Positions 1 to 59,374 of a DNA stretch of 64,000 bases are shown here, in pieces. Every line of letters begins with the position of its first letter. The first letter of the stretch is position 1. A program made the translations under genes and the position numbers. The notes beneath the pieces were generated by a model. That model saw only the letters and a list, made by a program, of their open reading frames with translations, ran no database searches and had not been told where the DNA came from. The stretch is from Gammaproteobacteria bacterium (lineage in GTDB: Bacteria > Pseudomonadota > Gammaproteobacteria > Steroidobacterales > Steroidobacteraceae), in assembly GCA_037200125.1 (NCBI GenBank), contig JBBCGS010000002.1:763488-827487 (forward strand). Direction: 5' to 3'.

Positions 1-383
1 AGTGCGCTCCCTCCCGTCGTGCGCGCGCCCGCCGTATCGATGATGTCCTTGATGGCAAGCGGCACGCCGTGCAGCGGCCCGCGAAGCTTGCCGGCCTTCT
101 GCTCGGCATCCAGCTGCGCCGCCTGCGCGCGGGCCTGGGCCTTCAGCACTGTGATGAAGGCGTCGAGTTTCGGGTCGAACACCGCGATCCGCGCGAGGCT
201 CGCTTCGGTGAGCTGGGTCGACGTCACGGAGCCCGATCGAACCGCGGCGGCCGCCTCGCTCAACGTCAACGTCGAGAGATCGGACGAGCTCGCGACCGCA
301 CTTGCGAGGCCGACTCGGGAGACCGCTTGAACCGCCATCGCGCCCGCCGCAACGGCGGTGAACTCACGTCGTGTCATCTTCAT
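1..383 (-). CDS. Amidase (amidase-signature family), 5' part only; gene continues past window start
   Basis: Reverse-strand translation from ATG at 383: MKMTRREFTAVAAGAMAVQAVSRV... Twin-arginine (RREF) signal. GAKLRGPLHGVPLAIKDIIDTAGARTTGGS is a typical amidase-signature N-terminal region. No stop before position 1. Confidence 0.7.
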   Translation of the reverse strand, partial: MKMTRREFTAVAAGAMAVQAVSRVGLASAVASSSDLSTLTLSEAAAAVRSGSVTSTQLTEASLARIAVFDPKLDAFITVLKAQARAQAAQLDAEQKAGKLRGPLHGVPLAIKDIIDTAGARTTGGSA

Positions 384-583
384 TTTTCTGGAACCCTGCT
401 CCGGTGACTGGCCAAGCGTCTTCCCCTTCAGACGGGCGATTCGGCCGCCGCCCCACCCGAGCACGTGTGCGTTTGTGACTTTTTGTGGTTCGTCCCCATC
501 GCCGCGACCGCCGCGCGCCCTATCCGGGCGTATGCAGGCAGCCGGCGAATTTCTCAGGATGTTTTGAGCAACGCTCGCGCGCG

Positions 584-1486
584 CTATCTCGTTCTCGACC
601 GCGCTACTCGACGATCGAAATTGAAGACTTTCGGCGCGCCGAACCTGAGCTTCCGAAAATCCGCGTGGAGTGGGTTCAGCAGGTAATTCCACTCCTCGAC
701 CACGATTGCCGAAGGCACCTTCAACACCGCGGTTTCACCCCGTTCCAGCCACTCTCCGCCGACTTTCTGCAGTTCCGTCGGCGCGTCCGCCGCATACCAA
801 TTGGCCGGCAGGTCTTTCGACGACACGCTTTGCACACGAACGCCTGACGGAATCGTGGCGCGCCCCAGCACGGTCGCCGGAACCCAACCGCGACGTCGAT
901 AGTTGACGGTGTACTCAAGCATCGCCAGCGAGATGCTGGCAGACGCGTACACGACCGGTCTTCCCCGCGGCGTCCACCGGCCGCTTGCGAATAACCCGCC
1001 TTGACCACCGAACAGTTGCGCCCGGTACGCATGCTTCCCGAGTCGAAAGACCGTGAGCGTCACGCATAAACCCCATGCTCCATTTGATAGAGCATGTTCG
1101 ATACCTTCTCGGCACCGGGGTCGGTCGCAATCGCCGCAAGCGGCGAACGGCCCGCGCAGCGCATCGCTAGGCTCACGAAGCCACGCCACGGCGTTCTCGC
1201 GACTCTCGAGCACCATCACGGCGAGAGCCAGAATTCGCGCAAGTCGCACGAGACGATCCGAAGTCGCTGGATCCAGTCGAGCACGACGTTTCCAGCGCGC
1301 GCGGGTCCGCAGACTGACCTGAAGGAGGCGATCCTCCTCAGCCGGCGTCAGTCCCAACGCCGCGATGACCGCCTCATAGGCGCGCACGGGAAGACCTCTC
1401 TCTACCTCGGCGAGCAGGTCAACGCCCGCAGCCCGCGTGCCGAACAGTCGTGGACCGCCCAGGAAGTCGATGACACTCGATGGCAC
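584..1486 (-). CDS. Xre-family (DUF2384) antitoxin and RES-domain toxin (ParS/ParT, MbcA/MbcT-like) encoded as one continuous 300-aa ORF
   Basis: N-terminal about 140 aa match the DUF2384 antitoxin pattern. The C-terminal half contains the RES core GGLFASGRWTPRGRPVVYASASISLAMLEYTVN. An internal in-frame GTG (..GAWGLC-V-TLTVFRL..) near 1060-1070 could be an independent toxin start. Confidence 0.75.
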   Translation of the reverse strand: MPSSVIDFLGGPRLFGTRAAGVDLLAEVERGLPVRAYEAVIAALGLTPAEEDRLLQVSLRTRARWKRRARLDPATSDRLVRLARILALAVMVLESRENAVAWLREPSDALRGPFAACGDCDRPRCREGIEHALSNGAWGLCVTLTVFRLGKHAYRAQLFGGQGGLFASGRWTPRGRPVVYASASISLAMLEYTVNYRRRGWVPATVLGRATIPSGVRVQSVSSKDLPANWYAADAPTELQKVGGEWLERGETAVLKVPSAIVVEEWNYLLNPLHADFRKLRFGAPKVFNFDRRVARSRTR

Positions 1487-1764
1487 AAGGAAGACCTCTG
1501 ATGCAAATTGGCAGCTATTCTAATGCCATTTGCCGGGCGGCGCGCCGGGAGTGGCCCACGACTCAGAATGCCACCAAAGCCCACCAAACGACTGACTCTC
1601 GGCCAGCGTACCGAATCGGCGACCGCAGACCGGCCACGCAAACCCGCCCGATCGCCTCGAGCACTCGAACATCATGAGCCAGCGCGTAGCCTCGCGTTGA
1701 ATCCGCACGGGGGCTGCCCTAGTCTCCCCTGAGCAACCAATCCCGCGTCCCGCCGAGGTTAGTC

Positions 1765-2244
1765 ATGAGCATCGTCAAACTGCGCGTCAACGGCGCGACT
1801 CACGAGGTGGACGTCGATCCGTCGACGCCTCTCCTTTACGTGCTGCGAAACGACCTCGATCTGCATGGGCCTCGCTTTGGATGCGGGATGGGCCAGTGCA
1901 GCGTGTGCACCGTCATCATTGACGGGGTGGCCACGCGCTCCTGTATCACGCCGGTATCAGCGGTGCGCGGTAGCGTCACAACGCTCGAGGGGCTCTCGAA
2001 GAACGGGAAGCGGCATCCGCTGCAACAAGCCTGGATCGACGAGCAGGCCGCGCAGTGTGGCTATTGCCAGAACGGCCAGATCATGACGGCCAAGGCACTG
2101 CTCGACAAGAATCCGAATCCGAGCGATGCCGAGATCCGCGCGGCGATGGACGGCGCACTGTGCCGATGCATGACCTACTACCGAGTCCAGGCGGCGATCC
2201 ATCGCGCGGTGCGCGCGACGAAAGCCGCGGGAGAAGGCAAGTGA
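1765..2244 (+). CDS. (2Fe-2S)-binding small subunit of a molybdopterin oxidoreductase (IorA/CoxS/aldehyde oxidase gamma-subunit type)
   Basis: Two [2Fe-2S] cysteine clusters: CGMGQCSVCTV and CGYCQNGQIMT...CRC. It is 159 aa and its stop overlaps the start of the next gene. Confidence 0.9.
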   Translation: MSIVKLRVNGATHEVDVDPSTPLLYVLRNDLDLHGPRFGCGMGQCSVCTVIIDGVATRSCITPVSAVRGSVTTLEGLSKNGKRHPLQQAWIDEQAAQCGYCQNGQIMTAKALLDKNPNPSDAEIRAAMDGALCRCMTYYRVQAAIHRAVRATKAAGEGK

Positions 2245-4628
2245 GCAACCTCCTGCAGCTGCCGAAGGCGGTGGAAGATGCAATCCCCGGGCTCACTCAG
2301 GCCTCGCGCCGAAGCTTTCTCAAAGCTTCCGGCGCACTGGTGATCAGCTTGAGCGTCGGCACTATGCCCGGCACAAACGCATTCGCGCAGACAGCCGCGG
2401 CTGCGGCCCCCGCCGGCCCCTACCCTGATCCCGACTTCCTGCAGGTCGACACGTGGATCGTGATTCATCCGGACAACAGCGCAACGTTCTACGTCGGCAA
2501 GACCGATGGCGGCCAGGGCACGGGCACGGCCTTCCGGCAGATGATGTGCGACGAACTGGACATCGCCTACGACAAGACCCGCCTCGTGATGGGTTGCACG
2601 GACATCACGCCTGACCAGGGCGGCTCGGGAGGTTCCGACGGCGTGGAGCGCGATGGCCTGGTGATGCGCCGAGTGGCGGCCGAAGCGCGGCGAGTCCTGC
2701 TGGACCTCGGTAGCCAGCATCTCGGCGCGCCGGTCGAAATGCTCGCGGTGGCCAACGCCACTATTGCGCTGAAGTCCGATCCCGCGAAGAAGGTGAGCTA
2801 CGCTCAACTGGTCGGCGGGAAACGCTTCAACGCCGCTCTCACCGGACGCAACGTCGACGCCGCGACCGGCAAAGCCCCCATAAAGCCGGTCACCGAGTTG
2901 CGCGTCGTCGGACAGTCACTGAAGCGCTACGACATTCCCGGCAAGGTGGACGGATCGTTGAAGTGGGCTGTGGACATGAAGCTGCCGCGCATGGTCCACG
3001 CGCGCAACGTCCGGCCGCCGTTCGCAGGCGCGACGCTACAGCGGATCGACGAATCGTCGGTGGCCGATGTGCCCGGCTTCATTCGCGTCGTCAGCCGTGG
3101 CAACTATGTCGCGGTGATCTGCGAGCGCGAAGAGCAGGCGATCCGCGCCGCGAGACAATTGAAGACGGAATGGAAACGGCCCGCCGCCGCGCCGTTCCCG
3201 TCCTCCGACGAGTTGTTCGACTACATGCGGCGTGCCACGCCCACTTCAGCCGGCGAGGCAAAGGTTGAGGGTGACCCGACCGCGGCGCTCGCGAGTGCCA
3301 GGCAGGTTGTCGAAGCCGACTACGAAGTGCCCTTTCAGGGACACTCATCCATTGGACCGGCACACGCGCTGGCCGACCCTTCCGACGGGCAGATGACGAT
3401 CTATTCGAACGACATGAAGTCGTACGGCCTGCGCATCGGCGTCGCGAAGTTCCTCGATATGCCGAAGGAGAAAGTGCGCGTCGTCTATATGGATGGCCCG
3501 CAAGTGTATGGCCGCACCGCTGCGGACGATGCCGGTTTCGAAGCCGCGTTCCTCGCCAAAGAGCTCGGCCGCCCGGTGCGCATGCAGTGGATGCGTGAAG
3601 AAGAAACGGGCTGGGATACCAAAGGCCCTGCGCACGTCTTCAAGATGCGCGGCGGGCTGGACGATCAAGGCAAAGTGGTGGCGCTCGAGTACGACGCCTG
3701 TGCCGCGGACTACAACCACCTTTGGTACAACGAACCCGACACGGTGCTGATTGCGCAGCTCATGGGCCGGCGCCCTCCCAGCCCGGCGAAGGGCAGTGTC
3801 GAAGCGCCGACCTCGATGTACGCCATTGCGAATCGGCGCACGACAACGCGCATCGTCGCGCTGCCGATGATCTGGGAGACACCGCTGCGGACCGGTAATC
3901 TGCGCGATCCCAATGGACCGCAGGTAACGTTCGCCTTCGAGTCGTTCATCGACGAGCTGGCGGCGGCGGCCAAGGCTGACCCCGTGCGGTTCCGCCTCGA
4001 TCTGCTCGAACAGGCGAAAGAAGATGAGGTGTTCCGCAAAGCGCGCTCCCTCGCCGCTGTGCGTGCCGCCGCAAAGACTTTTGGATGGGACGCGCGCCCG
4101 TCACCGAAGCCATTCGCGGCGGCATCGAGCGGCAAAACACTCTCGGGCCGAGGCATCGCGTACACCTACCGCAGCAACACCATTGCCGTCGTCATCGCCG
4201 AAGTCGAAGTGAATCGGGAGACCGGGCGTGTGTGGGCCAAGCGGCTCGTGTGCGCACACGACTGCGGACTGGTGATCAATCCCGAGGGCCTGAGTCACAC
4301 CGTGGAGTGCGGCATGTTGCACGGTCTGAGCCGTGCGCTCTGGGAAGAGGTCACCTTCGACACGGAGAATGTCACGAGCGTCAACTGGGCTTCATACCCC
4401 AGCTTGCGGCATTCGGACACGCCGCAATCCATCGACGTCGTGCTGGTCAACGGCGATCCGACGCCGGGCCGCCCCGACCTCGCGCCCTACGGCGCGGGCG
4501 AATGCAGCCACAAAGCCGTGATCGCCGCGATTGCCAACGCGATTTACGACGCAACGGGGGTTCGAATACGCCGGGCGCCCTTCCGCAGCGAGCGGGTGTT
4601 GGCGGCACTCGCGGCTGCGAGCACCTGA
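2241..4628 (+). CDS. Molybdopterin-binding large subunit (xanthine dehydrogenase/aldehyde oxidase family, IorB-like) with Tat signal
   Basis: GTG at 2241 overlaps the small-subunit stop (GTGA). Tat motif SRRSFLKASGALVISL. About 795 aa with homology along its length to Moco dehydrogenase beta subunits. The 2055 start given in the ORF track is an upstream alternative-start extension. Confidence 0.88.
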   Translation: MSNLLQLPKAVEDAIPGLTQASRRSFLKASGALVISLSVGTMPGTNAFAQTAAAAAPAGPYPDPDFLQVDTWIVIHPDNSATFYVGKTDGGQGTGTAFRQMMCDELDIAYDKTRLVMGCTDITPDQGGSGGSDGVERDGLVMRRVAAEARRVLLDLGSQHLGAPVEMLAVANATIALKSDPAKKVSYAQLVGGKRFNAALTGRNVDAATGKAPIKPVTELRVVGQSLKRYDIPGKVDGSLKWAVDMKLPRMVHARNVRPPFAGATLQRIDESSVADVPGFIRVVSRGNYVAVICEREEQAIRAARQLKTEWKRPAAAPFPSSDELFDYMRRATPTSAGEAKVEGDPTAALASARQVVEADYEVPFQGHSSIGPAHALADPSDGQMTIYSNDMKSYGLRIGVAKFLDMPKEKVRVVYMDGPQVYGRTAADDAGFEAAFLAKELGRPVRMQWMREEETGWDTKGPAHVFKMRGGLDDQGKVVALEYDACAADYNHLWYNEPDTVLIAQLMGRRPPSPAKGSVEAPTSMYAIANRRTTTRIVALPMIWETPLRTGNLRDPNGPQVTFAFESFIDELAAAAKADPVRFRLDLLEQAKEDEVFRKARSLAAVRAAAKTFGWDARPSPKPFAAASSGKTLSGRGIAYTYRSNTIAVVIAEVEVNRETGRVWAKRLVCAHDCGLVINPEGLSHTVECGMLHGLSRALWEEVTFDTENVTSVNWASYPSLRHSDTPQSIDVVLVNGDPTPGRPDLAPYGAGECSHKAVIAAIANAIYDATGVRIRRAPFRSERVLAALAAAST

Positions 4629-4801
4629 ATCGCGAAACGCGACTGGCGGGCAAGGGCAGAGATGCGTGTGAGCTGCGTGCGACCGCCAGCGCATATCACC
4701 CACCGCGGCCCGGCATCCGCGGCGGTGCATTGTCGGCACGAACGCCCGCAAACCCGTTAAAGTGCTGCCCGACCTACACATGACTCCGAGGCCAGATCAC
4801 C

Positions 4802-4918
4802 ATGTCAATGAACTCACACTATGCACGGTCGCCGGCACCTGCGACTCCCGAACAAAAGCCCGCCGCCAAGAAGGCGCAAAGCAAGCCGGCAAAGTCGAAG
4901 CCCGCGAAGAAGAAGTAA
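4802..4918 (+). CDS. Possible small Lys/Ala/Pro-rich protein (38 aa)
   Basis: ATG at 4802, TAA at 4916-4918, GAGG about 13 nt upstream. Translation: MSMNSHYARSPAPATPEQKPAAKKAQSKPAKSKPAKKK. It is below the 60-aa cutoff of the ORF track. Confidence 0.25.
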   Translation: MSMNSHYARSPAPATPEQKPAAKKAQSKPAKSKPAKKK

Positions 4919-5005
4919 TGCGCTGATCCCCGCCGGCCGGCGTTCGCGCGCCAGCCGGGGTGGGACGGCTCATGGTTCGTTCGCCGGTCACGCCACTCCT
5001 CGCTC

Positions 5006-5920
5006 TTGCACGCCGCACAGCCTCCCCGCCATCGCCCGGTCCTGGGCATCGGTCTGAAACTCGCTTCGCTCGTTCTGTTATCCGGCATGACGTTATGCGT
5101 CAAGCTGCTCGGCCAGGACACTCCGAGCGGCCAAATCATCTTTGCGCGAGGGGTGATCTCAGTCGCGGTCCTCGCGCTGATTGCGTGGCGTACCCACAGA
5201 CCGCATCTGCTGAAGACGAGCAACTGGCGCGGTCATGCCCTGCGCTCATTGGCCGGAACCGTGAGCATGTTCTGCCTGTTCGCGGCGGTCACGATGATTC
5301 CGTTGGCCGACGTCACCGCGATCACGTACGCGTCGCCGATGTTCATCACAGTGCTCGCCATGGTGTTTCTCGGTGAGCGGATTCACCGCTATCGCTGGAC
5401 GGCGCTGGCGCTGGGTTTCGTGGGAGTGCTGATCATGATTGGTCCCCATCTGTCCTTCGGGGCAGAGGGATCGATGGGCTCGCTGGCCGCGCTGGGCGCC
5501 GCCTTGTCCGCGGCGATCGCGATGACGTCCCTGCGCGCCATGAGTGGCGGCGAGCATGCGATCACGATTACGTTCTACTTTTCCCTCACGTTCATGGTCT
5601 GCGCGGGCCTGACCGCGATCCAGGGGTGGCCGGTGCCGACGCTGAGCCAATCCCTGCTGATCGTCCTCGCCGGTTTGTTCGGCGTGTTCGGCCAGCTCTT
5701 GATGACGTACTCCTATCGCTACGCCGAAGCGTCCACGATCGCGCCGCTCGAGTACACGAGCATGATCATGGCCGTCATCCTGGGCTATCTGTTCTTCGAC
5801 GAGATCCCGAAGCTCTCGGTGTGGATCGGCGCGCCGCTGGTCATCGCCGCGGGATCGATCGTGTTGTGGCGCGAGCATTTCCTGAAGAAGCAGATCAGCG
5901 CCGTCGGCTCGGAAGCGTGA
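5006..5920 (+). CDS. DMT-superfamily (EamA-like) transporter
   Basis: Ten predicted TM segments in a duplicated EamA pattern. TTG start at 5006; the true start may be the ATG at 5087. Confidence 0.8.
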   Translation: MHAAQPPRHRPVLGIGLKLASLVLLSGMTLCVKLLGQDTPSGQIIFARGVISVAVLALIAWRTHRPHLLKTSNWRGHALRSLAGTVSMFCLFAAVTMIPLADVTAITYASPMFITVLAMVFLGERIHRYRWTALALGFVGVLIMIGPHLSFGAEGSMGSLAALGAALSAAIAMTSLRAMSGGEHAITITFYFSLTFMVCAGLTAIQGWPVPTLSQSLLIVLAGLFGVFGQLLMTYSYRYAEASTIAPLEYTSMIMAVILGYLFFDEIPKLSVWIGAPLVIAAGSIVLWREHFLKKQISAVGSEA

Positions 5921-6142
5921 GAGCCACTCATCGGGAAACCCGCTCGACTTCGCGGTTCCCCCGCTGCGAGGTCCTGCCGCGAGAGTCTTGTCGCGCGCTC
6001 CTTTCGGTGATTGGCGGACTTCGGAACGGCTTTTCTTACACGTCCCGCAACCTTTGCGGCCTCCGCGGGCACATACCTTTCTTGCCTGTCTCCAGTTCGA
6101 TCCAGACCCCGGAAAACATCGGCTTTCACAGGGTTTTCCAGT

Positions 6143-6166
6143 TGCTAATACGAATGCTTCCTATTA
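6143..6166. promoter_or_regulatory. Candidate Fur-box-like AT-rich element upstream of the siderophore receptor
   Basis: GCTAATACGAATGCTTCCTATTAG is an AT-rich partial dyad (AATA...TATT) in an otherwise GC-rich leader, about 85 bp upstream of the receptor ATG. Confidence 0.25.
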
Positions 6167-6250
6167 GGGTCGCGACCGCTCACCTGCGGTTGAAGCCGCC
6201 GTGAGTCTTACCGATTCCTTACAAGTTTTCCGATTCGGGACTGAAAAGAC

Positions 6251-18470: not shown

Positions 18471-19832
18471 TCAATACGAGGCGAGACTGTGGTCGCCAGG
18501 TGCGACGGCGGCGGTGGGCGCAAGCATCATCACCACCTTCGAGCGGGACGAGATCTTCGGTTGTTTCTTTGCCGGCACATACTCGTTCCAGACGAGGGCG
18601 AAACCGGCGCCCCATGGCGCAATCGCCGGGACCAGGGACCAGGGATCGCTGCGTGAAAGCCGATGCGCCTCTTCCCTCGGAGCGCCTGCGTCGTCGAACG
18701 TCTGGAAGTAGATTTCGTACTGCCCTTCGGTGTCGTCGGACCACGCTAGTCCCACGACACCACGATTCCACGCGAGGTACGCGCCAACGGAGCTACCACT
18801 CGATGTCGTGACCCTGTGGGCTCTCTGATCCACGGGGCTCTGGAACAGCGCGTCGGCATCACCGGCAAGCAAGTAGACCTCGGTGTTGCCATCGCGCGAG
18901 TCGAACCACGTCAGCGCGCCCTTGGCACCCTCGAACGCGATATCGGGATAGACGGACGCCGCTCCATCGTCATTCGAGAGGCGTTGTACTGAAACGGCGT
19001 CCGCTTCGGCGCGCACCAGATAGAGCTCGGATTGGCGCGTCCCGATCTTGGCATCGAACACCACCCATGCCCGCCCCTGGCCGTCCAGCGCGGCATTCAG
19101 GTTCCAGGTCGTGCGGCTCGCGACCGCCGCGCGCCGTCGGGGTACGACTTCACGGCCCTCGAGATCGAACCACGCGAACCACACGTCTGGCGCGTGGGGG
19201 CCCGAACCTTCGACCCAGGCGCAGAACACGCGATCGCCAGCGATGCGAATCACCGGGTTGCGCCCCATGTGGCCGTTGGCCGAGAGTCGTACTGTCCAGC
19301 GCGCGACGCCTTCACGTGTCCATGAGCCCAGGCGCGCCGTGAGCTCGCCGCTCCCGGGCATCTTGTCGTACCAACCTATGAAGATCTGGTCACGAGCCAT
19401 CTGCAACGACGGTTCATATGCGTTCCGTCGACCGTGGGTGAGCTGCAGCTCGCGCGAGACCGGCTCCGCGCCTCCAGTGAGACGCGCGAAGATCTGCGCG
19501 TACTTGCCACGGGTGTCGTACCACGCGACGGCGAGATCGCCGGTTCCCGGGGCGATGCTCGCCTCGTAGGCGCCGACATCCGAAGTGCTCATGACGAGGG
19601 GCGCGCCCGCCGCGACTTCGGCGCCCGATGCGCTCAATGCGCTCAATGCGCTCAATGCGCTCAATGCGCCCGATGCGCCCGATGCGCCCAATGCGCCCAA
19701 TGCGCTCGAAGCCGACGCCGACGCGCTGACCGAGGTGCTCGCGCCAACCGCGACAAATGCAAACGACGCGGCAACAGCCGCCACGGCCGCAAGCGCCGCT
19801 CTTATGCCCCGCCGGCCCGCGCGCCGTTCCAT
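18471..19832 (-). CDS. Secreted PD40-like (TolB-type) beta-propeller repeat protein with (S-A-L)n linker
   Basis: Signal peptide [28 protein letters not shown]. Repeated motifs AWYDTRG.., IGWYDKMPG.., FAWFDLEG.., LTWFDSRDGNTEVYLL, LAWSDDTEGQYEIYF fit the PD40 repeat consensus. The start overlaps the end of the CobN-like gene by about 30 nt. Confidence 0.7.
   Translation of the reverse strand: MERRAGRRGIRAALAAVAAVAASFAFVAVGASTSVSASASASSALGALGASGASGALSALSALSALSASGAEVAAGAPLVMSTSDVGAYEASIAPGTGDLAVAWYDTRGKYAQIFARLTGGAEPVSRELQLTHGRRNAYEPSLQMARDQIFIGWYDKMPGSGELTARLGSWTREGVARWTVRLSANGHMGRNPVIRIAGDRVFCAWVEGSGPHAPDVWFAWFDLEGREVVPRRRAAVASRTTWNLNAALDGQGRAWVVFDAKIGTRQSELYLVRAEADAVSVQRLSNDDGAASVYPDIAFEGAKGALTWFDSRDGNTEVYLLAGDADALFQSPVDQRAHRVTTSSGSSVGAYLAWNRGVVGLAWSDDTEGQYEIYFQTFDDAGAPREEAHRLSRSDPWSLVPAIAPWGAGFALVWNEYVPAKKQPKISSRSKVVMMLAPTAAVAPGDHSLASY
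19621..19710. repeat. 9-bp tandem repeat, about 10 copies (GCGCTCAAT/GCGCCCGAT/GCGCCCAAT)
   Basis: Directly visible. On the minus strand it encodes the in-frame (LSA)n / ALGASGASGALSALSALSALSASG linker of the PD40 protein. Confidence 0.9.
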
Positions 19833-22800
19833 CTGGAATGCCACCGTGAACGCCACGCAAACAGGAACATCAGCAGCGGGAGTGCGATCCACAGGAAGTC
19901 CCACGGCGTGTCGCGCACGAGCGCGCGGCCCTGGCTCACGGCCTGCGTGGCCTTCTGCTCCTGCTCCATCAGATAGCCGCGAAGCTGCGTGCTCGCGCCG
20001 ACGGGCGTCGCTTTCTCACCCGGTGCCTTGCCGTTCGCCGCGCTGCCAGCGGCTTTGCTGTCACTCGCCGCGCTGCTGGCCGTTTTGCTGTCACTCACCG
20101 TGTCCCTAGCTGCTTTGGTGTCACTCACCGCGCCGGCGGCGTTCGCCTGTGCGTACCGCGCTTCGTTCTGCTTCACGAACGCTTCAGCCGCACGCGCCGC
20201 CACCGGAATACTCCTTCGAATCTGCACCTCCATGGATTCGCGGAACCGCTCCAGCGCCGGCGCCGGCACATTCAACTCGCGACCGCGATCGAGCACATAT
20301 TCGAGCAGGCGTGGATTGCCGCACGTGAACTCGGCGCAACCGACGCCGTGCTCCTGCACGCTCTTCACGTATTCCTCGATCAGCCTTGTTTCGGTGGCGG
20401 CGTCGGCCTTCCAGTAGCCTTTGCGAATCGTCTCCACCATGCGCGCCGTCATGTCCTGATACGCGAAGGGCGAGTCCTTGTCGAAGAACGCTTTCAGCCC
20501 GAGCTTGTGTTTGTCCTGCACGTAGACGTCGAAGGTTTCCTTCCACATCGCGTCGTCGACAAGATCGGGCGCGGTCGCCTTCCAGCCCCAGAGATACTCG
20601 ACGAACGCGCGCATTTCGCCCGCGCCCGCATAGCCCTCCTTCTTCATTCCCTCGATCCACGTCGGGTTGACGTAGCGCGAGCGGAACTCGGTGCCGAGGA
20701 ACTCGTCCATCGAGGTCATCTGTGGCTTGCTGGGATTGCGAGTGTTCGTCACCACCATCTCGGGGCTCTTCCCATCGAGACTGCGGATCGCGTTCGCAAG
20801 ACCGCCCATGTACATGAACATGTCGTCGTTATCGAGCGCGCCGTACAGCATCGTGGAACTGCTGTGCACGACTTGGTCCGTGCCAGAGAGCGCCATGCGA
20901 AACACATCCGGCATCGCCTCGCCCCAGAAGCCATTGCCGTAGCCGTGACCCAGCTTGTTGATATAGTCGTCCGCCATGCCGCGATCGGTATCCCAGGTGC
21001 CGCTCGCCGCCGCGATCGTCGAGGTGTTCAGGTTGAACTGGCCGGGGGGCTCATCGAAGATGCGCACGCCGGCGTACCGATCCGCATCCTTCTCGCTGTA
21101 GCCCTTCGCGATGAGCGTGGCTTTCGCTTTCAGGTAGTGCTGGCGCACGAGGTTTTCCGCCTCGTCCATCGCCTTCACCTTCTGCACGGCATCGTCCATC
21201 AGGCGCGTGACGTTGTTGAACATGCCCTCGGCCGCCGAGGCGATGACGATATCGACGCGCGGCCGCTTCAGCTCCCGGCGCGGTATCACGCTGACGCCGA
21301 CGACTTTGCCGCGCACATCCCACACCGGTTTCGTGCCGAGCAGATGGAAGATCTGCGATTCGAGCACGCCTTCGTGCCGCATCGTCTCGTCGCCCCAGAT
21401 CACGAACGAGACTTTCTCGGGATAGCGCCCGTGCTTCGCCACGTATTGGGCGAGCATGTCGTCGGCGAGCTTCACGCCGAGCGCATACGCGGCGGGCTTG
21501 GGCACCTTGTCCGGATCGATGCCGAAGAAGTTCTTGCCGGTCGGGTAGGAGTCCGGGTTGCGGATCGGCTCGCCGCCAGTGCCTCCCGGGAGGAAGTGAC
21601 CCGATAGCGCACGCACGAAGTTACCAAGCTCCGCCGCGCCACTGGCGACAATCCGCTGCTCCATGTCGCCTGCGGCAACCTTCGCCTTGTTCGGGAGCAG
21701 GCTTCGATCGGCGCTCACGATCGCATCGATGGTGCTCTCGCGCAGCGGCTTCTCCGGCGTCAGCCCGAACGTGTGGAGCCCATAGGGAATGTTCTCGTTC
21801 TTCAGCACCAGCAGCTGATTCTCGACGCGATGAATCGCTTCATCGTCGAGCGGCTTCGTCGGGTCGAGGCCGAGATCCTTGGCGAGGCCCAGCTTCGCAA
21901 CCTGCTCCGTAATCGACTTCGCGTATGCTTCGGCAAGCTGCGGATTCTTGGTCTCATTCACCGAGTGATCGTTGATGGACTCGCTCAACGCCGCGAGATC
22001 CGCATACAGCCCGCCCTTCTTGAACGGCGGCACCATGTGATCCACGAGCGCCGCCATGCCGCGGCGTCGTGCAACGAGCCCTTCCCCGACCACATCGACG
22101 TTGTAGATGTAGATGTCTGGAAGGTCGGCAATGAGCGCATCGGGCGCGTCTTCCTCGGAGAGCCCGGCATCCTTGCCGTCGAGCCATTCGAGCGTGCCGT
22201 GGGTGCCGACATGCACAACCGCGTCGGCTTTGAAGCTGTTCTTCAGCCACGCATAACTGGCGACGTACTGATGATGAGGCGCGAGATCCTTCGCGTGATA
22301 CATCTTCTCCGCATCTTCACCCCAACCGCGCGCCGGCTGCGGCATGAGGATCACGTTGCCGTACTGGACGCGCGGAATGACGAGCGACATCTCGCCGCGT
22401 TCGGACGTGGTCATCAATTTCGTGCGCGACGGCGGCCCCCAGTCGTTCACGATCTTGTCGCGCAAGGCCGGCGGGAAACCGTCCAGCCAGCGCGTGTATT
22501 CCTTCACGCTCACCTGCGCCGCTCCGCCGTGCGTGAGCAATTCCGCCAGCTCACCGGGCGCGTAGCCGCCGACGTTGCGCGCCTTCGTCGTGATGTCGCT
22601 CAGCACACTCTTCGCCGCAAGATCCGCGTCGCCGAGGTCGTAGCCCTCGCGCTTCAACCGCTGAAGCATTCGCGCCAGCGATTCGGCGACGTTGAGATAG
22701 CTCGCCCCGATGTTCGCCTTACCCGGCGGGTAGTTGTAGTAAAGGATCGCGATGTGTTTATCCGCGTTGCGCTTCGAGCGCAGCGTGGCGTAGCGCAGCC

Positions 22801-23902
22801 CGCGCGCCACCGCCATCGAGACCCGCGACGGAATCGGATGCGTGACGACCACCGCGAGCCCGGTCTCCCGATCGCGCACTTTTTCCTTGCTGCCGACCAC
22901 GGTCGGCGCGACGGTCCCGGCCAGTTCCGGCACCGCCATCAGGAACGTGCCTTCGAACATCGAGAGCCCGGTCGCGGAGGATCGCCACTCCTTCTCGCTA
23001 CGCCCATAGAGGCTCACGAGGTTGATGATCGGCACATCGACTTTCGCCAGCACGTTCGACGAATCGAAATCCGCGAAGTTGAAGATGAATCCGAGCGCGA
23101 CATCCGCGCGCGCCGCGCCGTGCTCGTCCAACAGCATCTTCTCGGTGGCGAACGCGCCGGGATAGCCGAAATACGGAATGGCGTCGGCGCCCTGCCGCTC
23201 CACTTCCGCGATCATCGAATCGAGCAGCTCGGTGTCGCCGGTGTAGTAAGTCGACTTGTAGAAGCCGATTGCGACGCGTGGGCGGCCGGCGTGCGCCTTG
23301 CCGTTTTCACGGCGCCACGCGTCGAACTCATTCCAGGTGGCGAAAGCTCGCCCGCCTGAGGCGGAAGGGTAGTAGTAGCCGAAGTCCAGACTCCGCTCGG
23401 GCTCGGGCACCGTGAGCCCGGCAACGCCGGCCTTGGTGAGCGCGTACTTCATCAGCGCGAGCTGGTTGGTGGCACCCGCATGAGCCCAGTACGCGCGGGC
23501 GCGAGCATCCCAATCGACACCTTGTTCGAGATACCGCTCCTTCGGCAGCAGGCCCTCGCCGACGCCGAGAACCACGCCGTGACGACGCACGTCGGCGAGC
23601 AGGTCCACGCTATGCGCCTGGTTGAAGCGCTCGAGCATCTGCTCGTTCATCGTGTCGAGCACGAGCACGTCGGCGCCGGTCATCGCCTTCGCATCGGTTT
23701 CGTCGAACACGGATTCGGCGAGATAACCGAGAGTGACCTGGTCCTTGAGATCCGGCCGCTCGGCGAGCAGTTGCCGGTAAGCGCGCACCGTGCCGGGGAT
23801 GTTGCCGTCGGAATAGAGATAAACGATGCGAACGGGCTTCGCGACGGCCGCGAACGCCATGAACAGCAGCACTAGCGCAAGACTAAGGCTTCGCACCCGC
23901 AT
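19802..23902 (-). CDS. CobN/Mg-chelatase-H-like large chelatase subunit, extracytoplasmic: N-terminal signal peptide, C-terminal TM anchor (HmuS-like)
   Basis: CobN-family homology along about 1300 aa (e.g. [42 protein letters not shown]). N-terminus [21 protein letters not shown] is signal-like. C-terminus has an Asp/Ser/Lys low-complexity region then the TM helix [20 protein letters not shown] at 23902 verified; 23932 ([10 protein letters not shown]..) is an alternative. The ORF track's extension to 24121 is read-through of the hexanucleotide repeat. Confidence 0.85.
20044..20132. repeat. Three imperfect copies of an approximately 30-bp repeat (..TTTGCTGTCACTC(A/G)CCG..)
   Basis: Directly visible. 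It encodes the [29 protein letters not shown] low-complexity segment just before the C-terminal TM anchor of the CobN-like protein. Confidence 0.7.
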
Positions 23903-24458
23903 CACCCGGCGGCTGTGCGCCACTGGCGCCATCGCTTGGGCCGCCTCTGTCTCGGCCCCCGGCGCCAGTGCCGGTGCCAGTGCCAGTGCCGGTGCCAGTG
24001 CCAGTGCCGATGCCAGTGCCAGTGCCAGCGCCAGTGCCGGTGCCGGTGCCGGTGCCAGCGCCGGTGCCAGTGCCGGTGCCAGTGCCGGTGCCAGCGCCGG
24101 TGCCAGCGCCGGTGCCGGCATCCGCGCCTTCCGGCACGTAGATGACCTGCCCGTTCGCGAGCCGATACGCCACGCCGAGTCGCTCGCCGTTACCGGACAG
24201 CGCCTTGTCCGTCACCTTGTACGCTTTGATCTCGGTGCCCTTCTTCGTGATGATCTCGCGCTCCCCTTGCGCATTCGTCTTCACGAGCGTCACTTCGCTT
24301 TGCGCATCGACGAGATCGCCCATGCGATAGACGGAGAACAGCGTGATCATCAAGCCCACGATGAACACGATCGACACGTCGAACAGGTTCGCGACACCCG
24401 CGAGGGGATCTTCCTCAGGCGGTTCGTCCGGCGGCGGCAGTCGAAGAAAGCGACCCAC
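23883..24458 (-). CDS. DUF2149-family protein (ExbD/TolR-like partner of MotA/ExbB-type channels) with C-terminal (Gly-Thr/Gly-Ala)~28 tail
   Basis: N-terminal TM helix ([17 protein letters not shown]) and an about 110-aa core typical of DUF2149. The ORF reads without a stop through the GCCGGT/GCCAGT hexanucleotide repeat, giving ...[19 protein letters not shown]...[27 protein letters not shown]. Confidence 0.7.
23962..24120. repeat. Hexanucleotide tandem repeat (GCCAGT/GCCGGT/GCCAGC), about 27 copies
   Basis: Directly visible. One minus-strand frame gives the (GT/GA)n tail of the DUF2149 protein. Another gives a (PA/LA)n peptide in frame with, and upstream of, the CobN-like start. Confidence 0.95.
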
Positions 24459-55476: not shown

Positions 55477-56331
55477 TCAATATGGTTTGGACTTGTCGCC
55501 CTGATATAGATGTTCGACGTCGTGCTCACCCTCGTGGCACTCCATCTCCCACCATTCGTAGTCCGGCTCATCCTTGTGCGCTCGGGAGAAGCTCGAGGCC
55601 AGCGTCCATGGCTGCGTGTACACCGCCGGATCCTCGTATCTCTGTTCCAGTTTGAAGTTGTTGGCGTCGATGAATGTGTAGCGCTCGGTGATGTGCACCT
55701 TGTCGCTCGCGAAATCACCCTCGTTGCTCAGGCGATGCTTCGAGTTGCTGTTCGTCACGTCGACGACGAGGGTGTTGCCCTCCCAATGGCCACGGGAGTC
55801 GGACATCCATAGTTTTATTTTTTCCGGGATGTGGGGACGCCCATCGAGTGGGATCACGCGATACGGATGATTCATGTCGAACACGAACACGACGTAGCCC
55901 GGATACTGGCGAATCTCGAGCTGCGACCAGAACAACGTGCGTGTCACGCCGCCGGGAACGCAGCGCGCTTGCGGGTCGATGTGTTCGGGCTTGACCCACT
56001 TTTCGATGTTCGCCTCGGTTTCCTGCTGTCGCGCGCGGGCCCAGGCCTGATAGGGAATCTGCCCGTCCGCCGGATCGACGACGCGAGAGTTCTCCGGCGG
56101 TGGCAGTTTCTTGCCGGCCTTCAAAGTCTGATCGATCTTTTCGAGCTGCTCGATACCCGGTGCGCGCGCCGGCCGGATCAGCGAGTAGGTGCCTTCGACT
56201 TCAGGTTTGTAGAAGCCGCGCACGTCGGGTTGACCATCCGGCAGATGGGCCGGCTGCCAGTCCGCCGCAGCAGCGGTACTCAGCGCCAGGACGCACACGA
56301 CACCCTGGCAAATTCGAGATGCGGTACTCAT
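55477..56331 (-). CDS. Secreted protein of unknown function, paralogue A (shared core WxSDSRGHWEGxTLVVDVT..)
   Basis: ATG at 56331 verified, signal peptide present. Shares about 40% identity blocks with the next gene (DSRGHWEGNTLVVDVTNSNSKHRLSNEGDFASDKVHITERYTF versus DSRGHWEGDTLVVDVTHFNDQTWFDRAGNFHSDALHVIERYTL). Confidence 0.7.
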   Translation of the reverse strand: MSTASRICQGVVCVLALSTAAAADWQPAHLPDGQPDVRGFYKPEVEGTYSLIRPARAPGIEQLEKIDQTLKAGKKLPPPENSRVVDPADGQIPYQAWARARQQETEANIEKWVKPEHIDPQARCVPGGVTRTLFWSQLEIRQYPGYVVFVFDMNHPYRVIPLDGRPHIPEKIKLWMSDSRGHWEGNTLVVDVTNSNSKHRLSNEGDFASDKVHITERYTFIDANNFKLEQRYEDPAVYTQPWTLASSFSRAHKDEPDYEWWEMECHEGEHDVEHLYQGDKSKPY

Positions 56332-57125
56332 GGATAGAACCGCTCGTAGTCGAACGTGTAGCACTCGTGCTCCAGAAGCTGGAAGTTCTTTTCCTTGTGG
56401 CGATAGAGAACCAGGTTGATGTTCCACGGCCGGGTGAACACCTTCGGATCCTCTATCGTCGCGCGGTACTCGATGTGATCAGGACCGATGAGGGTGTAGC
56501 GCTCGATGACGTGCAATGCGTCGCTGTGGAAGTTGCCGGCGCGGTCGAACCACGTCTGATCGTTGAAGTGGGTCACGTCCACGACCAGCGTGTCACCCTC
56601 CCAATGACCGCGCGAGTCGCCGAGCCACCAATCGATGTGCCCGGGCGGATGCGGCGCTCCGTTCGCATGAACCGTGCGCACGCTGTGCGCGTACTGGTAG
56701 AGGAACGTCAGCTCTTTCTCGGACTGAAAGATCTGAAAAGGCAAAGGCGTGTACGTGATGCGCGGTACGCCCGGCATGAAGCACTTCGCCAGCGGGTCGA
56801 GCTTCGCGCGCTTCGCGAAATTCTGATCACGACGCGCAAGCGCCCACGGCTGGTACGGAATGACGTCGCCTTCGACGATGCCGAGGCCTGCCGGCGCGTC
56901 CTTGCGTGCGGCATGCGGCTCGACGCCCCATTCCGCCGTGCTCAGCGCTTCCCATATGCCGGTGAGATCGGGTTTGCCATCTGTGCCGCGAGGCAAGCCG
57001 GGCCGGGAAGCCGTAGTGGCATCCTGCGCATTTACAACCGTCGCGGGGGCGCCGACTACGACAGCGAATGCAACGCTCGCAAGCAACGTGCGCCCGAAAA
57101 ATAGAGCCGTACGAGATCCGAACAT
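56328..57125 (-). CDS. Secreted protein of unknown function, paralogue B
   Basis: Signal peptide MFGSRTALFFGRTLLASVAFAVVVGAPATVVNAQD. Its stop overlaps the paralogue A start (ATGA). Confidence 0.7.
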   Translation of the reverse strand: MFGSRTALFFGRTLLASVAFAVVVGAPATVVNAQDATTASRPGLPRGTDGKPDLTGIWEALSTAEWGVEPHAARKDAPAGLGIVEGDVIPYQPWALARRDQNFAKRAKLDPLAKCFMPGVPRITYTPLPFQIFQSEKELTFLYQYAHSVRTVHANGAPHPPGHIDWWLGDSRGHWEGDTLVVDVTHFNDQTWFDRAGNFHSDALHVIERYTLIGPDHIEYRATIEDPKVFTRPWNINLVLYRHKEKNFQLLEHECYTFDYERFYP

Positions 57126-57969: not shown

Positions 57970-59343
57970 CTACAGCTTGCGCGCGACAGCGTCGCCGCCG
58001 GTCCGCGACGCATCGGTCAGCGTTGTCGCCGCGCCGGTTGCTTTCTCCGCGAGCAACTGCTCGATACGCTCGGTGAACTCCTTTCTCAACTGCGCGTGAT
58101 ACTGCCCACTCGCCCGCGACGCGAAACCCGAGTGCACCGTTCGCACCGTGCCGTCACGGCCAACGAACACCGTGGCGGGCCACGTGTTGAGATTCACGAG
58201 CTGCGGCACCTTCTCCCACATCTCAGCGGGCGCGCCCGCGATGAGATACGGGTATTTCACGCCGTATTGCTTCACGAACGCATGCACGCGCACGAGGCTG
58301 TCCTGCTGCTCCGGCTCCTCGAAATCGAGTGCAACGATCGCAAGACCCTTGTCGCGGTACTTCCGATCGAGCTCGACCAGGAGTTGCGCTTCATCATGGC
58401 AATTCGGGCACCAGGTGCCGGTCACGATCGCCAGCACCACCTTGCCCTTGAAATCCTCGTTCGAGACCGGCTTGCCGTTGACGTCCGGGAAGTTGAACGC
58501 AAACCGCTCCTTCGCATCGCGCGCCGTCGTGTGCGTCAGAAAGTTCGCGGGCTCCGGAAAGCCTTTGCTGCGCGCAACTTCCGGGCGGTAGGCGATGTAC
58601 TTGGGCGCCGCATCCCCATAGCGCTCTTCCGAGTAGCCCTTGCTGTCATTCCCCTGCAAGGCGTGGATGATCGCCTCGTTGTGCGCCAGCACGTCGAGCG
58701 TGCCATCACTGCGCGCACTGACTTCGATGACTCCCGGGCGCTGCCCGTCGAAGTGACTCAGCACCCACTTGCCGTCCTTGTACGCACCGCTGTAGGCGCC
58801 CGTATCGCCATCGACGCGCAGAATGGAAGCGGCCACCTCCGCCCCCTTCTGCCGCACGATGAAACGGAACGCCTTCTCGCCCTTGGACGAGGGCGAATCC
58901 AGCGGAATCTCCCACGCACCGTCGATCGACGGAACGTTCCGCGCGGTCGCGGCTGGCGCATCGACGTGACGAACGGCCCGGAAACCATACTTGAGGTGAT
59001 AGCCGGGCCCCGTCAGCTCGGTGTCGCCGATCAGCGCGCCGTCCTTCAGATCCGCGCTGATCGTCGTCAGGTAATGCTCGGCCTTCAGAACCAGTTTGCC
59101 GTCCTTGAACGTCGCATTCGTCGTCGTCTCGTACGGCTGAAAGCCATCGTAGAACGTTCCCTTGAGCGACGAATCGGTTCCGGAGATGTCCAGGCGGAAG
59201 GCCACCGGCGGTCCGTTATCGAGCAGCACCGCATCCCAGCGTCCGCTGATGGCGTCCGGCGAAGCGCCGGACGCACCAAACGCGACAGGTAACGCGCCAC
59301 CCACGAGAATCGCGAGAGTGGTTGTTCTCAGCAGCGTTTTCAT
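57970..59343 (-). CDS. TlpA/ResA-family thioredoxin-fold protein fused to a duplicated approximately 2 x 130-aa N-terminal beta-rich domain (paralogue 1)
   Basis: Signal peptide. Two similar modules (GRWDAVLLDNGPPVAFRLDISG..KGTFYDGF.. and GAWEIPLDSPSSKGEKAFRFIV..GAYKDGKWVLSHFDG..) precede a thioredoxin domain with WCPNC. Confidence 0.8.
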   Translation of the reverse strand: MKTLLRTTTLAILVGGALPVAFGASGASPDAISGRWDAVLLDNGPPVAFRLDISGTDSSLKGTFYDGFQPYETTTNATFKDGKLVLKAEHYLTTISADLKDGALIGDTELTGPGYHLKYGFRAVRHVDAPAATARNVPSIDGAWEIPLDSPSSKGEKAFRFIVRQKGAEVAASILRVDGDTGAYSGAYKDGKWVLSHFDGQRPGVIEVSARSDGTLDVLAHNEAIIHALQGNDSKGYSEERYGDAAPKYIAYRPEVARSKGFPEPANFLTHTTARDAKERFAFNFPDVNGKPVSNEDFKGKVVLAIVTGTWCPNCHDEAQLLVELDRKYRDKGLAIVALDFEEPEQQDSLVRVHAFVKQYGVKYPYLIAGAPAEMWEKVPQLVNLNTWPATVFVGRDGTVRTVHSGFASRASGQYHAQLRKEFTERIEQLLAEKATGAATTLTDASRTGGDAVARKL

Positions 59344-59374
59344 TGTCAGGATTCCTTGTCCTGCTGGGCAACGC

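What the first reader, a model, noticed from the sequence alone, without database searches (positions are those of the whole stretch)
584..1486. Xre-RES toxin-antitoxin encoded as a single fused 300-aa ORF
RES toxins (NAD+-degrading MbcT/ParT-type) and their DUF2384 antitoxins are normally two genes. Here the reading frame runs uninterrupted from the antitoxin into the RES core. An in-frame GTG sits at the expected toxin start (about 1060-1070), but there is no antitoxin stop. This could be a genuine fusion (a self-neutralised module), a single-base sequencing frameshift, or translational coupling through the internal start.
Basis: partly seen in the sequence, partly recalled or inferred. Interest (0 to 1): 0.55.

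Follow-up and report, generated by a model that had tools for sequence, protein, structure and literature searches.

The report
Frameshifted Xre-RES toxin-antitoxin operon
The 300-codon "fused" toxin-antitoxin gene is an ordinary two-gene Xre-RES (ParS/ParT-like) operon in which one extra base in the antitoxin gene shifts its frame into the overlapping toxin gene; it is not an evolved fusion.

Summary
Window 584-1486 (- strand) is one uninterrupted 300-codon ORF with an Xre-like HTH at its N-terminus, a RES domain at its C-terminus and an in-frame GTG at 1063-1061.

The fusion reading does not hold.
- The antitoxin's last 29 codons and its TGA stop are all present, one frame over (1149-1060). 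The stop overlaps the toxin GTG as GTGA.
- The window has CC at 1150/1149 where 19 of 19 aligned relatives have a single C.
- Removing one C restores a 141-aa antitoxin that matches curated models end to end (NF049845: 99 bits against 59.5 as sequenced, cut-off 90).
- The 11 closest loci all encode 141-aa and 159-aa genes with a 4-nt overlap. None of 101 other related loci has both domains in one ORF.
- Differences from relatives after the insertion are nearly all synonymous in the antitoxin frame.

The window comes from a PacBio HiFi metagenome co-assembly (JBBCBH010010861.1). An independent re-assembly of raw run SRR28211700 carries the same base, so it is in the reads. I cannot tell a very recent real mutation from a residual HiFi error. 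As written, the product lacks the antitoxin's neutralising C-terminus. Low interest.

The parts
584..1486 (-). The 300-codon ORF as sequenced. It consists of antitoxin residues 1-112, then 29 out-of-frame residues (PFAACGDCDRPRCREGIEHALSNGAWGLC), then the complete 159-residue RES toxin.
   Evidence: The exact product is also on Logan contig L103, re-assembled from run SRR28211700.
1060..1486 (-). Antitoxin gene (Xre/ParS-like). It is 427 nt as sequenced, which is 141 codons plus the stop plus one extra base. The start is GTG at 1486-1484.
   Evidence: With one C removed the product matches NF049845 over 1-112/112 (99.1 bits, cut-off 90), TIGR02293 to its last position, and PF09722 over 2-51/51. 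It aligns to the C-terminal ends of 8GUG_B, 6GW6_B and MbcA 6FKG_C. It is 94% identical to the 141-aa antitoxins of the closest loci.
1235..1420 (-). Xre-like helix-turn-helix domain of the antitoxin (aa 23-84).
   Evidence: PF20432, 46.7-48.6 bits, profile 1-63/63.
1149..1150 (-). The frameshift site. The window has CC (GG on the + strand) where relatives have a single C. Context on the - strand is CTGCGCGGG-CC-GTTCG. It falls at antitoxin codon 113.
   Evidence: This is the only gap column in the DNA alignments with 9 relatives and 19 relatives. Coordinates were checked.
1060..1149 (-). Antitoxin codons 113-141 (RSPLAAIATDPGAEKVSNMLYQMEHGVYA) plus the TGA stop. They are intact but lie in the +1 frame relative to the ORF. 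This segment is most of the toxin-binding and neutralising domain.
   Evidence: The peptide is 29/29 identical to those of L093, L085, L089, L001, L094, L087 and L088, despite 7-15 nucleotide differences.
1060..1063 (-). GTGA, the 4-nt overlap of the toxin start (GTG 1063-1061) and the antitoxin stop (TGA 1062-1060).
   Evidence: Conserved in every aligned relative. Gene calls in 10 of the 11 closest loci show the same 4-nt overlap; the eleventh, L116, has only a cut upstream gene that ends in the same overlap.
584..1063 (-). RES toxin gene (ParT-like), 159 aa plus a TAG stop.
   Evidence: NF049844 scores 141.7 bits against a cut-off of 110, and PF08808 scores 74 bits. PDB matches are ParT 6D0H at E = 2.5e-17 and Res 6GW6/9R35. 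The invariant residues R7, R29, Y39, E50 and S118 are kept. It shows no deviation from columns conserved in at least 90% of relatives.
1495..1498 (-). GAGG, 8 nt upstream of the antitoxin GTG. A possible ribosome-binding site (inferred only).
   Evidence: Read from the sequence. No sigma-70-like promoter and no inverted-repeat operator were found in 1440-1770.
584..1213 (-). The CDS that GenBank annotates here: MEJ0035779.1, a 209-aa 'RES domain-containing protein'. It starts at GTG 1213, inside the antitoxin part of the fused ORF.

Best explanation
This is a standard bicistronic type II Xre-RES (ParS/ParT-like) toxin-antitoxin operon on the - strand. It has a 141-codon antitoxin gene (1486->1060) and a 159-codon RES toxin gene (1063->584). 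Their stop and start overlap as GTGA.

One extra C at 1150/1149, in antitoxin codon 113, moves the reading frame by one base into the frame of the toxin gene. The next 29 codons happen to contain no stop in that frame. The ORF therefore runs on through the toxin GTG to the toxin stop, giving 300 codons.

Shown:
- the extra base;
- the intact out-of-frame antitoxin end and its stop;
- the two-gene layout in all relatives;
- purifying selection on the antitoxin frame;
- the presence of the base in raw HiFi reads.

Inferred:
- The change is either very recent or not biological. Nothing else in either gene has decayed.
- I put about 55% on a real, very recent mutation in the sampled population and about 40% on a residual PacBio HiFi read or consensus error.
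- If the base is real, translation from GTG 1486 gives an HTH-plus-toxin chimera that lacks the antitoxin's neutralising C-terminus. The locus would then be a damaged toxin-antitoxin module that is probably deleterious or silenced. It would not be a self-neutralised single-chain module.
For: -: the +1 frame reads ...RSPLAAIATDPGAEKVSNMLYQMEHGVYA*, and the TGA overlaps the toxin GTG.
- there is exactly one gap column. The window has an extra C, and 19 of 19 aligned relatives lack it.
- the antitoxin model scores rise from partial and below cut-off (59.5 bits; PF09722 2-25/51) to full length and above cut-off (99.1 bits; PF09722 2-51/51) when one base is removed.
- the repaired antitoxin aligns to the last residues of solved antitoxins.
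- 10 of the 11 loci with toxins about 92% identical carry a 141-aa antitoxin and a 159-aa toxin overlapping by 4 nt; in the eleventh (L116) the contig cuts the upstream gene.
- none of 80 genome loci and none of 21 metagenome loci has both domains in one stop-to-stop ORF.
- the 87 nt after the insertion differ from relatives at 3-19 positions. These give 0-3 amino-acid changes in the antitoxin frame and 2-16 in the fused frame.
- the window's toxin and repaired antitoxin show no deviation from columns conserved in at least 90% of 24 unique homologs.
- the window is from GenBank JBBCBH010010861.1, a hifiasm-meta co-assembly of HiFi reads. A Logan re-assembly of raw run SRR28211700 is 100% identical over window 1-1814, including the extra base.
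- I found no other frameshifted gene in the 64-kb window.
Against: - No read-level data could be inspected, so real mutation and HiFi error cannot be separated.
- An intact toxin beside an antitoxin without its neutralising end should be harmful, which argues against a real fixed mutation.
- The clean rest of the window, the short sequence context (C to CC, not a long homopolymer) and the agreement of two assemblers argue against an error.
- Nothing contradicts the frameshift origin itself.
Confidence: 0.93

Rival explanations
1. The extra C is a residual PacBio HiFi read or consensus error. The organism carries an intact two-gene operon (141 aa plus 159 aa), and the fused ORF exists only in the deposited sequence. 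This is a sub-case of the frameshift explanation.
For: - Both genes are otherwise pristine.
- A toxin left without a working antitoxin should be counter-selected. MbcA lacking its last 10 residues fails to neutralise MbcT (PMC6436930).
- The source is a long-read metagenome co-assembly without short-read polishing.
- From my own knowledge, residual HiFi errors are mostly single-base indels in G/C-rich runs.
- Other assemblies of this gene family show single-base indels within 15 bp of the same spot: L081/P0021, L098 and P0039.
Against: - The same base is present in an independent k-mer re-assembly of raw run SRR28211700, so an assembler or read-correction artefact is excluded.
- No other frameshift is visible in the 64-kb window, although it holds 381 homopolymers of 4 or more bases and 63 of 5 or more.
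- The change is C to CC, not a long homopolymer.
Confidence: 0.4
2. This is an evolved single-chain Xre-RES module. The antitoxin and toxin are made as one polypeptide that neutralises itself in cis.
For: - The ORF is open from the HTH to the end of the RES domain.
- One 305-aa protein with both domains, P0059, appears among the best 150 of 5959 hits in the 1.84-billion-protein library.
Against: - The fused frame lacks 29 of the roughly 50 residues of the toxin-binding domain, including the part needed for neutralisation in MbcA.
- That part is still encoded intact in the other frame, with its own stop.
- None of 112 related loci is fused.
- Substitutions are synonymous in the antitoxin frame and would change the protein in the fused frame.
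- P0059 is also a frameshift product. Its PF09722 match stops at 37/51 and is followed by scrambled sequence.
Confidence: 0.03
3. The extra base is real and is bypassed by programmed +1 ribosomal frameshifting. The cell would then make both full-length antitoxin and some fusion protein.
For: Only that the downstream antitoxin frame is perfectly preserved. A very recent mutation or an error explains this equally well.
Against: - The sequence around the site (CUG CGC GGG CCG UUC) has no recognisable shift-prone motif, in-frame stop or rare codon (my reading, against known sites such as prfB).
- The insertion is unique to this one sequence among 19 aligned relatives, so no recoding signal is conserved.
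Confidence: 0.02

Closest known systems
ParS/ParT of Sphingobium sp. YBL2 (PDB 6D0H/6D0I; NCBIfam NF049845 and NF049844)
   Same: - This is the best solved-structure match of the toxin (E = 2.5e-17, aa 10-154).
- Both NCBIfam subfamily models are passed above their cut-offs, the antitoxin only after repair.
- The antitoxin-then-toxin gene order is the same.
   Different: - The two proteins are distant homologues: phmmer scores only 66.5 bits over ~145 aligned residues (no percent identity was reported).
- The window's antitoxin gene carries a +1-nt insertion.
- The biochemical activity (ADP-ribosylation of Prs by ParT, from my own knowledge, versus NAD+ degradation) cannot be assigned from sequence.
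MbcA/MbcT of Mycobacterium tuberculosis (Rv1990c/Rv1989c; PDB 6FKG)
   Same: - Same Xre-RES architecture.
- The repaired antitoxin aligns with MbcA residues 13-114 of 115 (E = 2.7e-4).
- The antitoxin C-terminus blocks the toxin active site, and deleting its last 10 residues abolishes neutralisation (PMC6436930).
   Different: - A distant relative. MbcT itself was not among the PDB hits at E <= 0.01.
- MbcT is an NAD+ phosphorylase. Whether this toxin shares that activity is untested.
Res-Xre of Pseudomonas putida (PDB 6GW6, 9R35) and 8GUG
   Same: - The toxin matches at E = 2e-12 to 4e-13.
- The antitoxin matches at E = 3e-9 (6GW6_B) and 1e-10 (8GUG_B), running to their C-termini.
[quoted passage not shown]
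   Different: Low sequence identity, and nothing here has been tested experimentally.
Evolved single-chain toxin-antitoxin proteins (for example EzeT of E. coli and CapRel SJ46), recalled from my own knowledge
   Same: Only the superficial point that antitoxin-like and toxin domains lie in one ORF.
   Different: - Those proteins carry a complete, conserved neutralising domain in frame.
- Here the neutralising segment is out of frame, the junction is unique to one sequence, and it shows no selection.

Membership tests
Xre-RES (ParS/ParT, MbcA/MbcT) type II toxin-antitoxin system | The toxin has a RES domain that scores above the curated cut-offs. | tested here: met
   PF08808 scores 72.7-74 bits (cut-off 23.2). 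NF049844 scores 139-142 bits (cut-off 110), covering 1-146/147.
Xre-RES (ParS/ParT, MbcA/MbcT) type II toxin-antitoxin system | The conserved Arg, Glu and Ser of the RES signature, plus the N-terminal Arg and Tyr, are present. | tested here: met
   R7, R29, Y39, E50 and S118 are invariant across 17 aligned toxins and are kept in the window. Their equivalence to MbcT R27, R47, E69 and S126 is inferred from order and spacing only (PMC6436930).
Xre-RES (ParS/ParT, MbcA/MbcT) type II toxin-antitoxin system | The antitoxin has an N-terminal Xre-like HTH and a complete C-terminal toxin-binding domain in one reading frame. | tested here: not met
   As sequenced, PF09722 covers only 2-25/51 (16.5 bits, cut-off 24.5), and NF049845 scores 59.5 bits (cut-off 90). 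With one C removed the feature is met: PF09722 2-51/51 at 49.5 bits, and NF049845 1-112/112 at 99.1 bits. The locus is therefore a member at the DNA level with a disrupted antitoxin frame.
Xre-RES (ParS/ParT, MbcA/MbcT) type II toxin-antitoxin system | Two adjacent co-oriented genes, antitoxin first, with overlapping stop and start. | tested here: met
   The GTGA overlap at 1063-1060 is conserved in all aligned relatives. Ten of the 11 closest loci are called as 141 aa plus 159 aa with a 4-nt overlap; in the eleventh (L116) the contig cuts the upstream gene.
Xre-RES (ParS/ParT, MbcA/MbcT) type II toxin-antitoxin system | The toxin arrests growth through NAD+ consumption or ADP-ribosylation, and the antitoxin neutralises it. 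| not testable with these tools
   This needs expression and toxicity assays and NAD+ measurements.
Evolved single-chain (fused) toxin-antitoxin protein | A complete neutralising domain lies in frame with the toxin domain. | tested here: not met
   The last 29 antitoxin residues are replaced by out-of-frame sequence in the 300-aa ORF.
Evolved single-chain (fused) toxin-antitoxin protein | The fusion is shared by relatives, and the junction is under purifying selection. | tested here: not met
   No fused ORF occurs in 80, 21 and 11 related loci. Differences from relatives are nearly all synonymous in the antitoxin frame and mostly change the protein in the fused frame.
Programmed ribosomal frameshift site | A shift-prone motif with a stimulatory element, conserved among relatives. 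| tested here: not met
   I recognise no such motif at CUG CGC GGG CCG UUC (my reading). The insertion is absent from all 19 aligned relatives.

The most novel reading that the evidence does not exclude
The extra base is real, and the population carrying it is viable. The 300-aa HTH-RES chimera would then be made and tolerated. Tolerance could arise in three ways:
- the N-terminal 141 residues blunt the toxin in cis;
- loss of termination-reinitiation at GTGA starves the internal toxin start;
- the retained HTH keeps the operon tightly repressed.

That would be a natural snapshot of how a two-gene toxin-antitoxin module can survive loss of its neutralising segment, and a possible first step toward a single-chain module.
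Probability: 0.1. Interest if true: 0.4.

Novelty: already known. Interest (0 to 1): 0.12.

Why it matters
It matters mainly as a caution for annotation.

- A single-base indel near the end of an upstream gene that overlaps its partner by 4 nt will merge the two ORFs about half the time in G+C-rich DNA. The result looks like a domain fusion.
- GenBank annotates this locus as a 209-aa RES protein with no antitoxin and without flagging the frameshift.
- At least four other database proteins of this family (P0021, P0039, P0043, P0059) are frameshift products of the same kind. Domain-architecture surveys that count Xre-RES fusions would be inflated by them.

If the base is real, the locus is an example of a toxin left without its neutralising partner. 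That is of modest interest for how toxin-antitoxin modules decay.

Tried and rejected
- GC3 frame plot across the locus. It was not informative, because the frames are poorly separated in this module.
- Consensus promoter and terminator scan of 300-1800, and inverted-repeat search of 1440-1770 for an operator. Nothing was found, so no regulatory elements are claimed.
- Exact-pattern scan of metagenome contigs for same-species copies of the junction. No hits. A degenerate pattern then gave 21 relatives, none closer than 87% DNA identity.
- Synteny of the flanking genes with related loci. There is none, apart from a distant iorA match. Close relatives sit in other contexts.
- Search for other frameshifts in the window as a gauge of assembly quality. 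Suspicious gaps and overlaps all resolved into intact genes or tandem paralogues.
- Look-up of the exact 159-aa toxin and the repaired 141-aa antitoxin. Neither is on record, so no intact allele of this strain was found.
- Structure prediction was not run. It could not separate the hypotheses.

Full report
**Observation.** Window 584-1486 on the - strand is a single GTG-started ORF of 300 aa. Pfam places an Xre-like HTH (PF20432) at aa 23-84 and a RES domain (PF08808) at aa 146-280. NCBIfam places the ParT-type RES toxin model NF049844 at aa 147-293. An in-frame GTG lies at 1063-1061, which is codon 142.

The domain matches already show a problem. The antitoxin's C-terminal toxin-binding domain (PF09722) is matched only over profile positions 2-25 of 51, at 16.5 bits against a cut-off of 24.5. 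The full antitoxin models stop at aa 110-112, and NF049845 scores 59.5 bits against a cut-off of 90.

**The missing piece is in the next frame.** I translated the same strand one base over. That frame reads ...AGRSPLAAIATDPGAEKVSNMLYQMEHGVYA*. This is the canonical end of this antitoxin family, and its TGA overlaps the toxin start as GTGA (1063-1060).

Joining the two frames by deleting one base gives a 141-aa protein with these matches:
- NF049845 over 1-112/112, at 99.1 bits.
- TIGR02293 to its last position.
- PF09722 over 2-51/51, at 49.5 bits.
- Alignment to the C-terminal ends of the solved antitoxins 8GUG_B, 6GW6_B and MbcA 6FKG_C.

The downstream 159-aa protein, starting at GTG 1063, has these matches:
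- NF049844 at 141.7 bits.
- ParT 6D0H at E = 2.5e-17 as the best solved structure.

**Locating the indel.** DNA alignments with 9 relatives and then 19 relatives contain exactly one gap column in this region. The window reads CTGCGCGGG-CC-GTTCG. Every relative has a single C there; L094 and L087, for example, read TTGCGCGGG-C-GCTCG. The extra base is the C at window 1150/1149 on the - strand (G on the + strand), in antitoxin codon 113. The ORF therefore holds antitoxin residues 1-112, a 29-residue out-of-frame bridge (PFAACGDCDRPRCREGIEHALSNGAWGLC), and then the whole toxin.

At 64.6% G+C a 29-codon stretch stays free of stops by chance about half the time. This is my own estimate from base composition. 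The read-through itself is therefore unremarkable.

**Relatives.**
- All 36 hits of the 300-aa query in the 5.8-billion-protein set are either toxins or antitoxins. None covers both halves.
- Among 80 related genome loci, none has both domains in one stop-to-stop ORF. Only the window does.
- The same holds for 21 metagenome loci.
- The cluster that contains the fused protein also holds 159-aa toxins about 92% identical to it.
- In 10 of the 11 loci that encode these toxins, the genes are called as 141 aa plus 159 aa with a 4-nt overlap. In the eleventh (L116) the contig cuts the upstream gene, which ends in the same overlap. This layout matches the reconstruction exactly.

**Which frame has been under selection.** The 87 nt after the insertion differ from relatives at 3-19 positions. 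Read in the antitoxin frame, these differences cause 0-3 amino-acid changes, and the peptide is 29/29 identical in seven relatives. Read in the fused frame, they would cause 2-16 changes. The window's toxin and its repaired antitoxin show no deviation from columns conserved in at least 90% of 24 unique homologs. The RES signature residues R29, E50 and S118, together with R7 and Y39, are all kept. The locus is thus pristine apart from one base. The change is either very recent or not biological.

**Consequence if translated as written.** In MbcTA the main contacts are made by the antitoxin C-terminus inside the toxin's active-site cleft. MbcA lacking its last 10 residues cannot neutralise MbcT. 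The same blocking by the C-terminal region is reported for the P. putida complex (PMC6436930). The 300-aa product lacks the homologous 29 residues, so it cannot be a self-neutralised module by the known mechanism. Ribosomes in the fused frame also do not terminate at the GTGA. By inference, the normal termination-reinitiation route to free toxin would then be lost.

**Provenance, and error versus mutation.**
- The neighbouring IorA protein led to GenBank contig JBBCBH010010861.1 (1.246 Mb, GCA_037975565.1). That contig is 100% identical to window 1-6244.
[quoted passage not shown] No short-read polishing is described (PMC11613949).
- The exact 300-aa product is also encoded on a Logan contig re-assembled from raw HiFi run SRR28211700. 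That contig is 100% identical to window 1-1814. The extra base is therefore in the reads and is not an artefact of the submitters' assembler.
- Every long gene in the 64-kb window is intact (1439, 1087, 857, 844 and 833 aa, among others). Every suspicious gap or overlap resolved into complete genes. This holds even though the window contains 63 homopolymers of 5 or more bases.
- These points favour a real mutation. The expected harm of an un-neutralised toxin and the complete lack of any other decay favour an error.
- I put about 55% on a real, very recent mutation, about 40% on a HiFi error, and about 5% on the exotic readings together. Matched Illumina data exist and would settle the question.

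**Other frameshifted family members.**
- P0021/L081 and P0039 shift frame right after ALGG(RSP).
- L098 has lost one G in the adjacent G-run.
- P0043 runs into the toxin frame, as the window does.
- P0059 is the only two-domain protein among the best 150 of 5959 hits in the 1.84-billion-protein library. It has a truncated PF09722 match (2-37/51) followed by scrambled sequence.

Apparent Xre-RES fusions in databases are thus recurrent frameshift products around this G/C-rich stretch.

**Comparison with known systems and verdict.**
- The locus belongs to the Xre-RES family first predicted as COG5642-COG5654 (PMC2701414) and closest to ParS/ParT. It meets every sequence-level criterion except an uninterrupted antitoxin frame.
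- It fails all three tests for an evolved fusion: a complete in-frame neutralising domain, conservation of the junction, and selection on the junction.
- It shows no sign of programmed frameshifting.
- Whether the toxin degrades NAD+ or ADP-ribosylates a target cannot be decided here.
- Novelty is nil beyond a caution for annotation. GenBank's own annotation (MEJ0035779.1, 209 aa, 584-1213) starts inside the antitoxin part and omits the antitoxin.
- Interest is 0.12.

Noticed in passing
L098 (Ga0105239_10072994) about 1356-2591; L081 (ERZ25039574 contig_24013) about 2878-3891: Two more distant relatives carry independent single-base deletions within 15 bp of the window's insertion site. One is in the G-run and one is in the following C-run. 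Each also has a second frameshift in the toxin gene near profile position 82-84. This G/C-rich stretch looks like a hotspot for indels, whether mutational or technical.
   Followed up: partly
window 584-1213 (-): GenBank annotates this locus as MEJ0035779.1, a 209-aa 'RES domain-containing protein' that starts at GTG 1213 inside the antitoxin part. No antitoxin and no frameshift are flagged. The collection's own gene calls on the same contig record a 122-aa RES fragment and a spurious 135-aa antisense ORF (window 1094-1501, + strand).
   Followed up: yes
window 23964-24116, 19621-19709 and 20038-20133: Tandem repeats flank and enter the CobN-like gene (19802-24121, - strand, 1439 aa). A 12-nt unit repeated 12.8 times encodes (PALA)n at its N-terminus. 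A 9-nt unit repeated 9.4 times lies near the start of the neighbouring 477-aa ORF (18471-19904, - strand), which has no Pfam match. A 30-nt unit is repeated 3.2 times.
   Followed up: no
window 57970-59391 and 59375-60982 (-); 55477-56427 and 56328-57125 (-): There are two pairs of tandem paralogues. One pair of roughly 470-530-aa proteins has a C-terminal AhpC/Redoxin domain and a long shared N-terminal region with no Pfam match. The other pair of roughly 265-316-aa proteins has no Pfam match at all.
   Followed up: partly
window 1765-2244 (+), iorA-like 2Fe-2S subunit: The identical 159-aa protein is also on a 1208-bp contig of a second, very large assembly (GCA_015689235.1). The same or a very close organism was therefore sampled elsewhere. 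I could not fetch that DNA.
   Followed up: no
L106/L113, L112, L107 (closest relatives of the module): The nearly identical toxin-antitoxin module sits in unrelated neighbourhoods. In some loci it lies next to a Fic-domain gene, and in others next to a DUF433/DUF5615 pair. None shares the window's amidase and iorAB flanks. This fits a small mobile module.
   Followed up: partly
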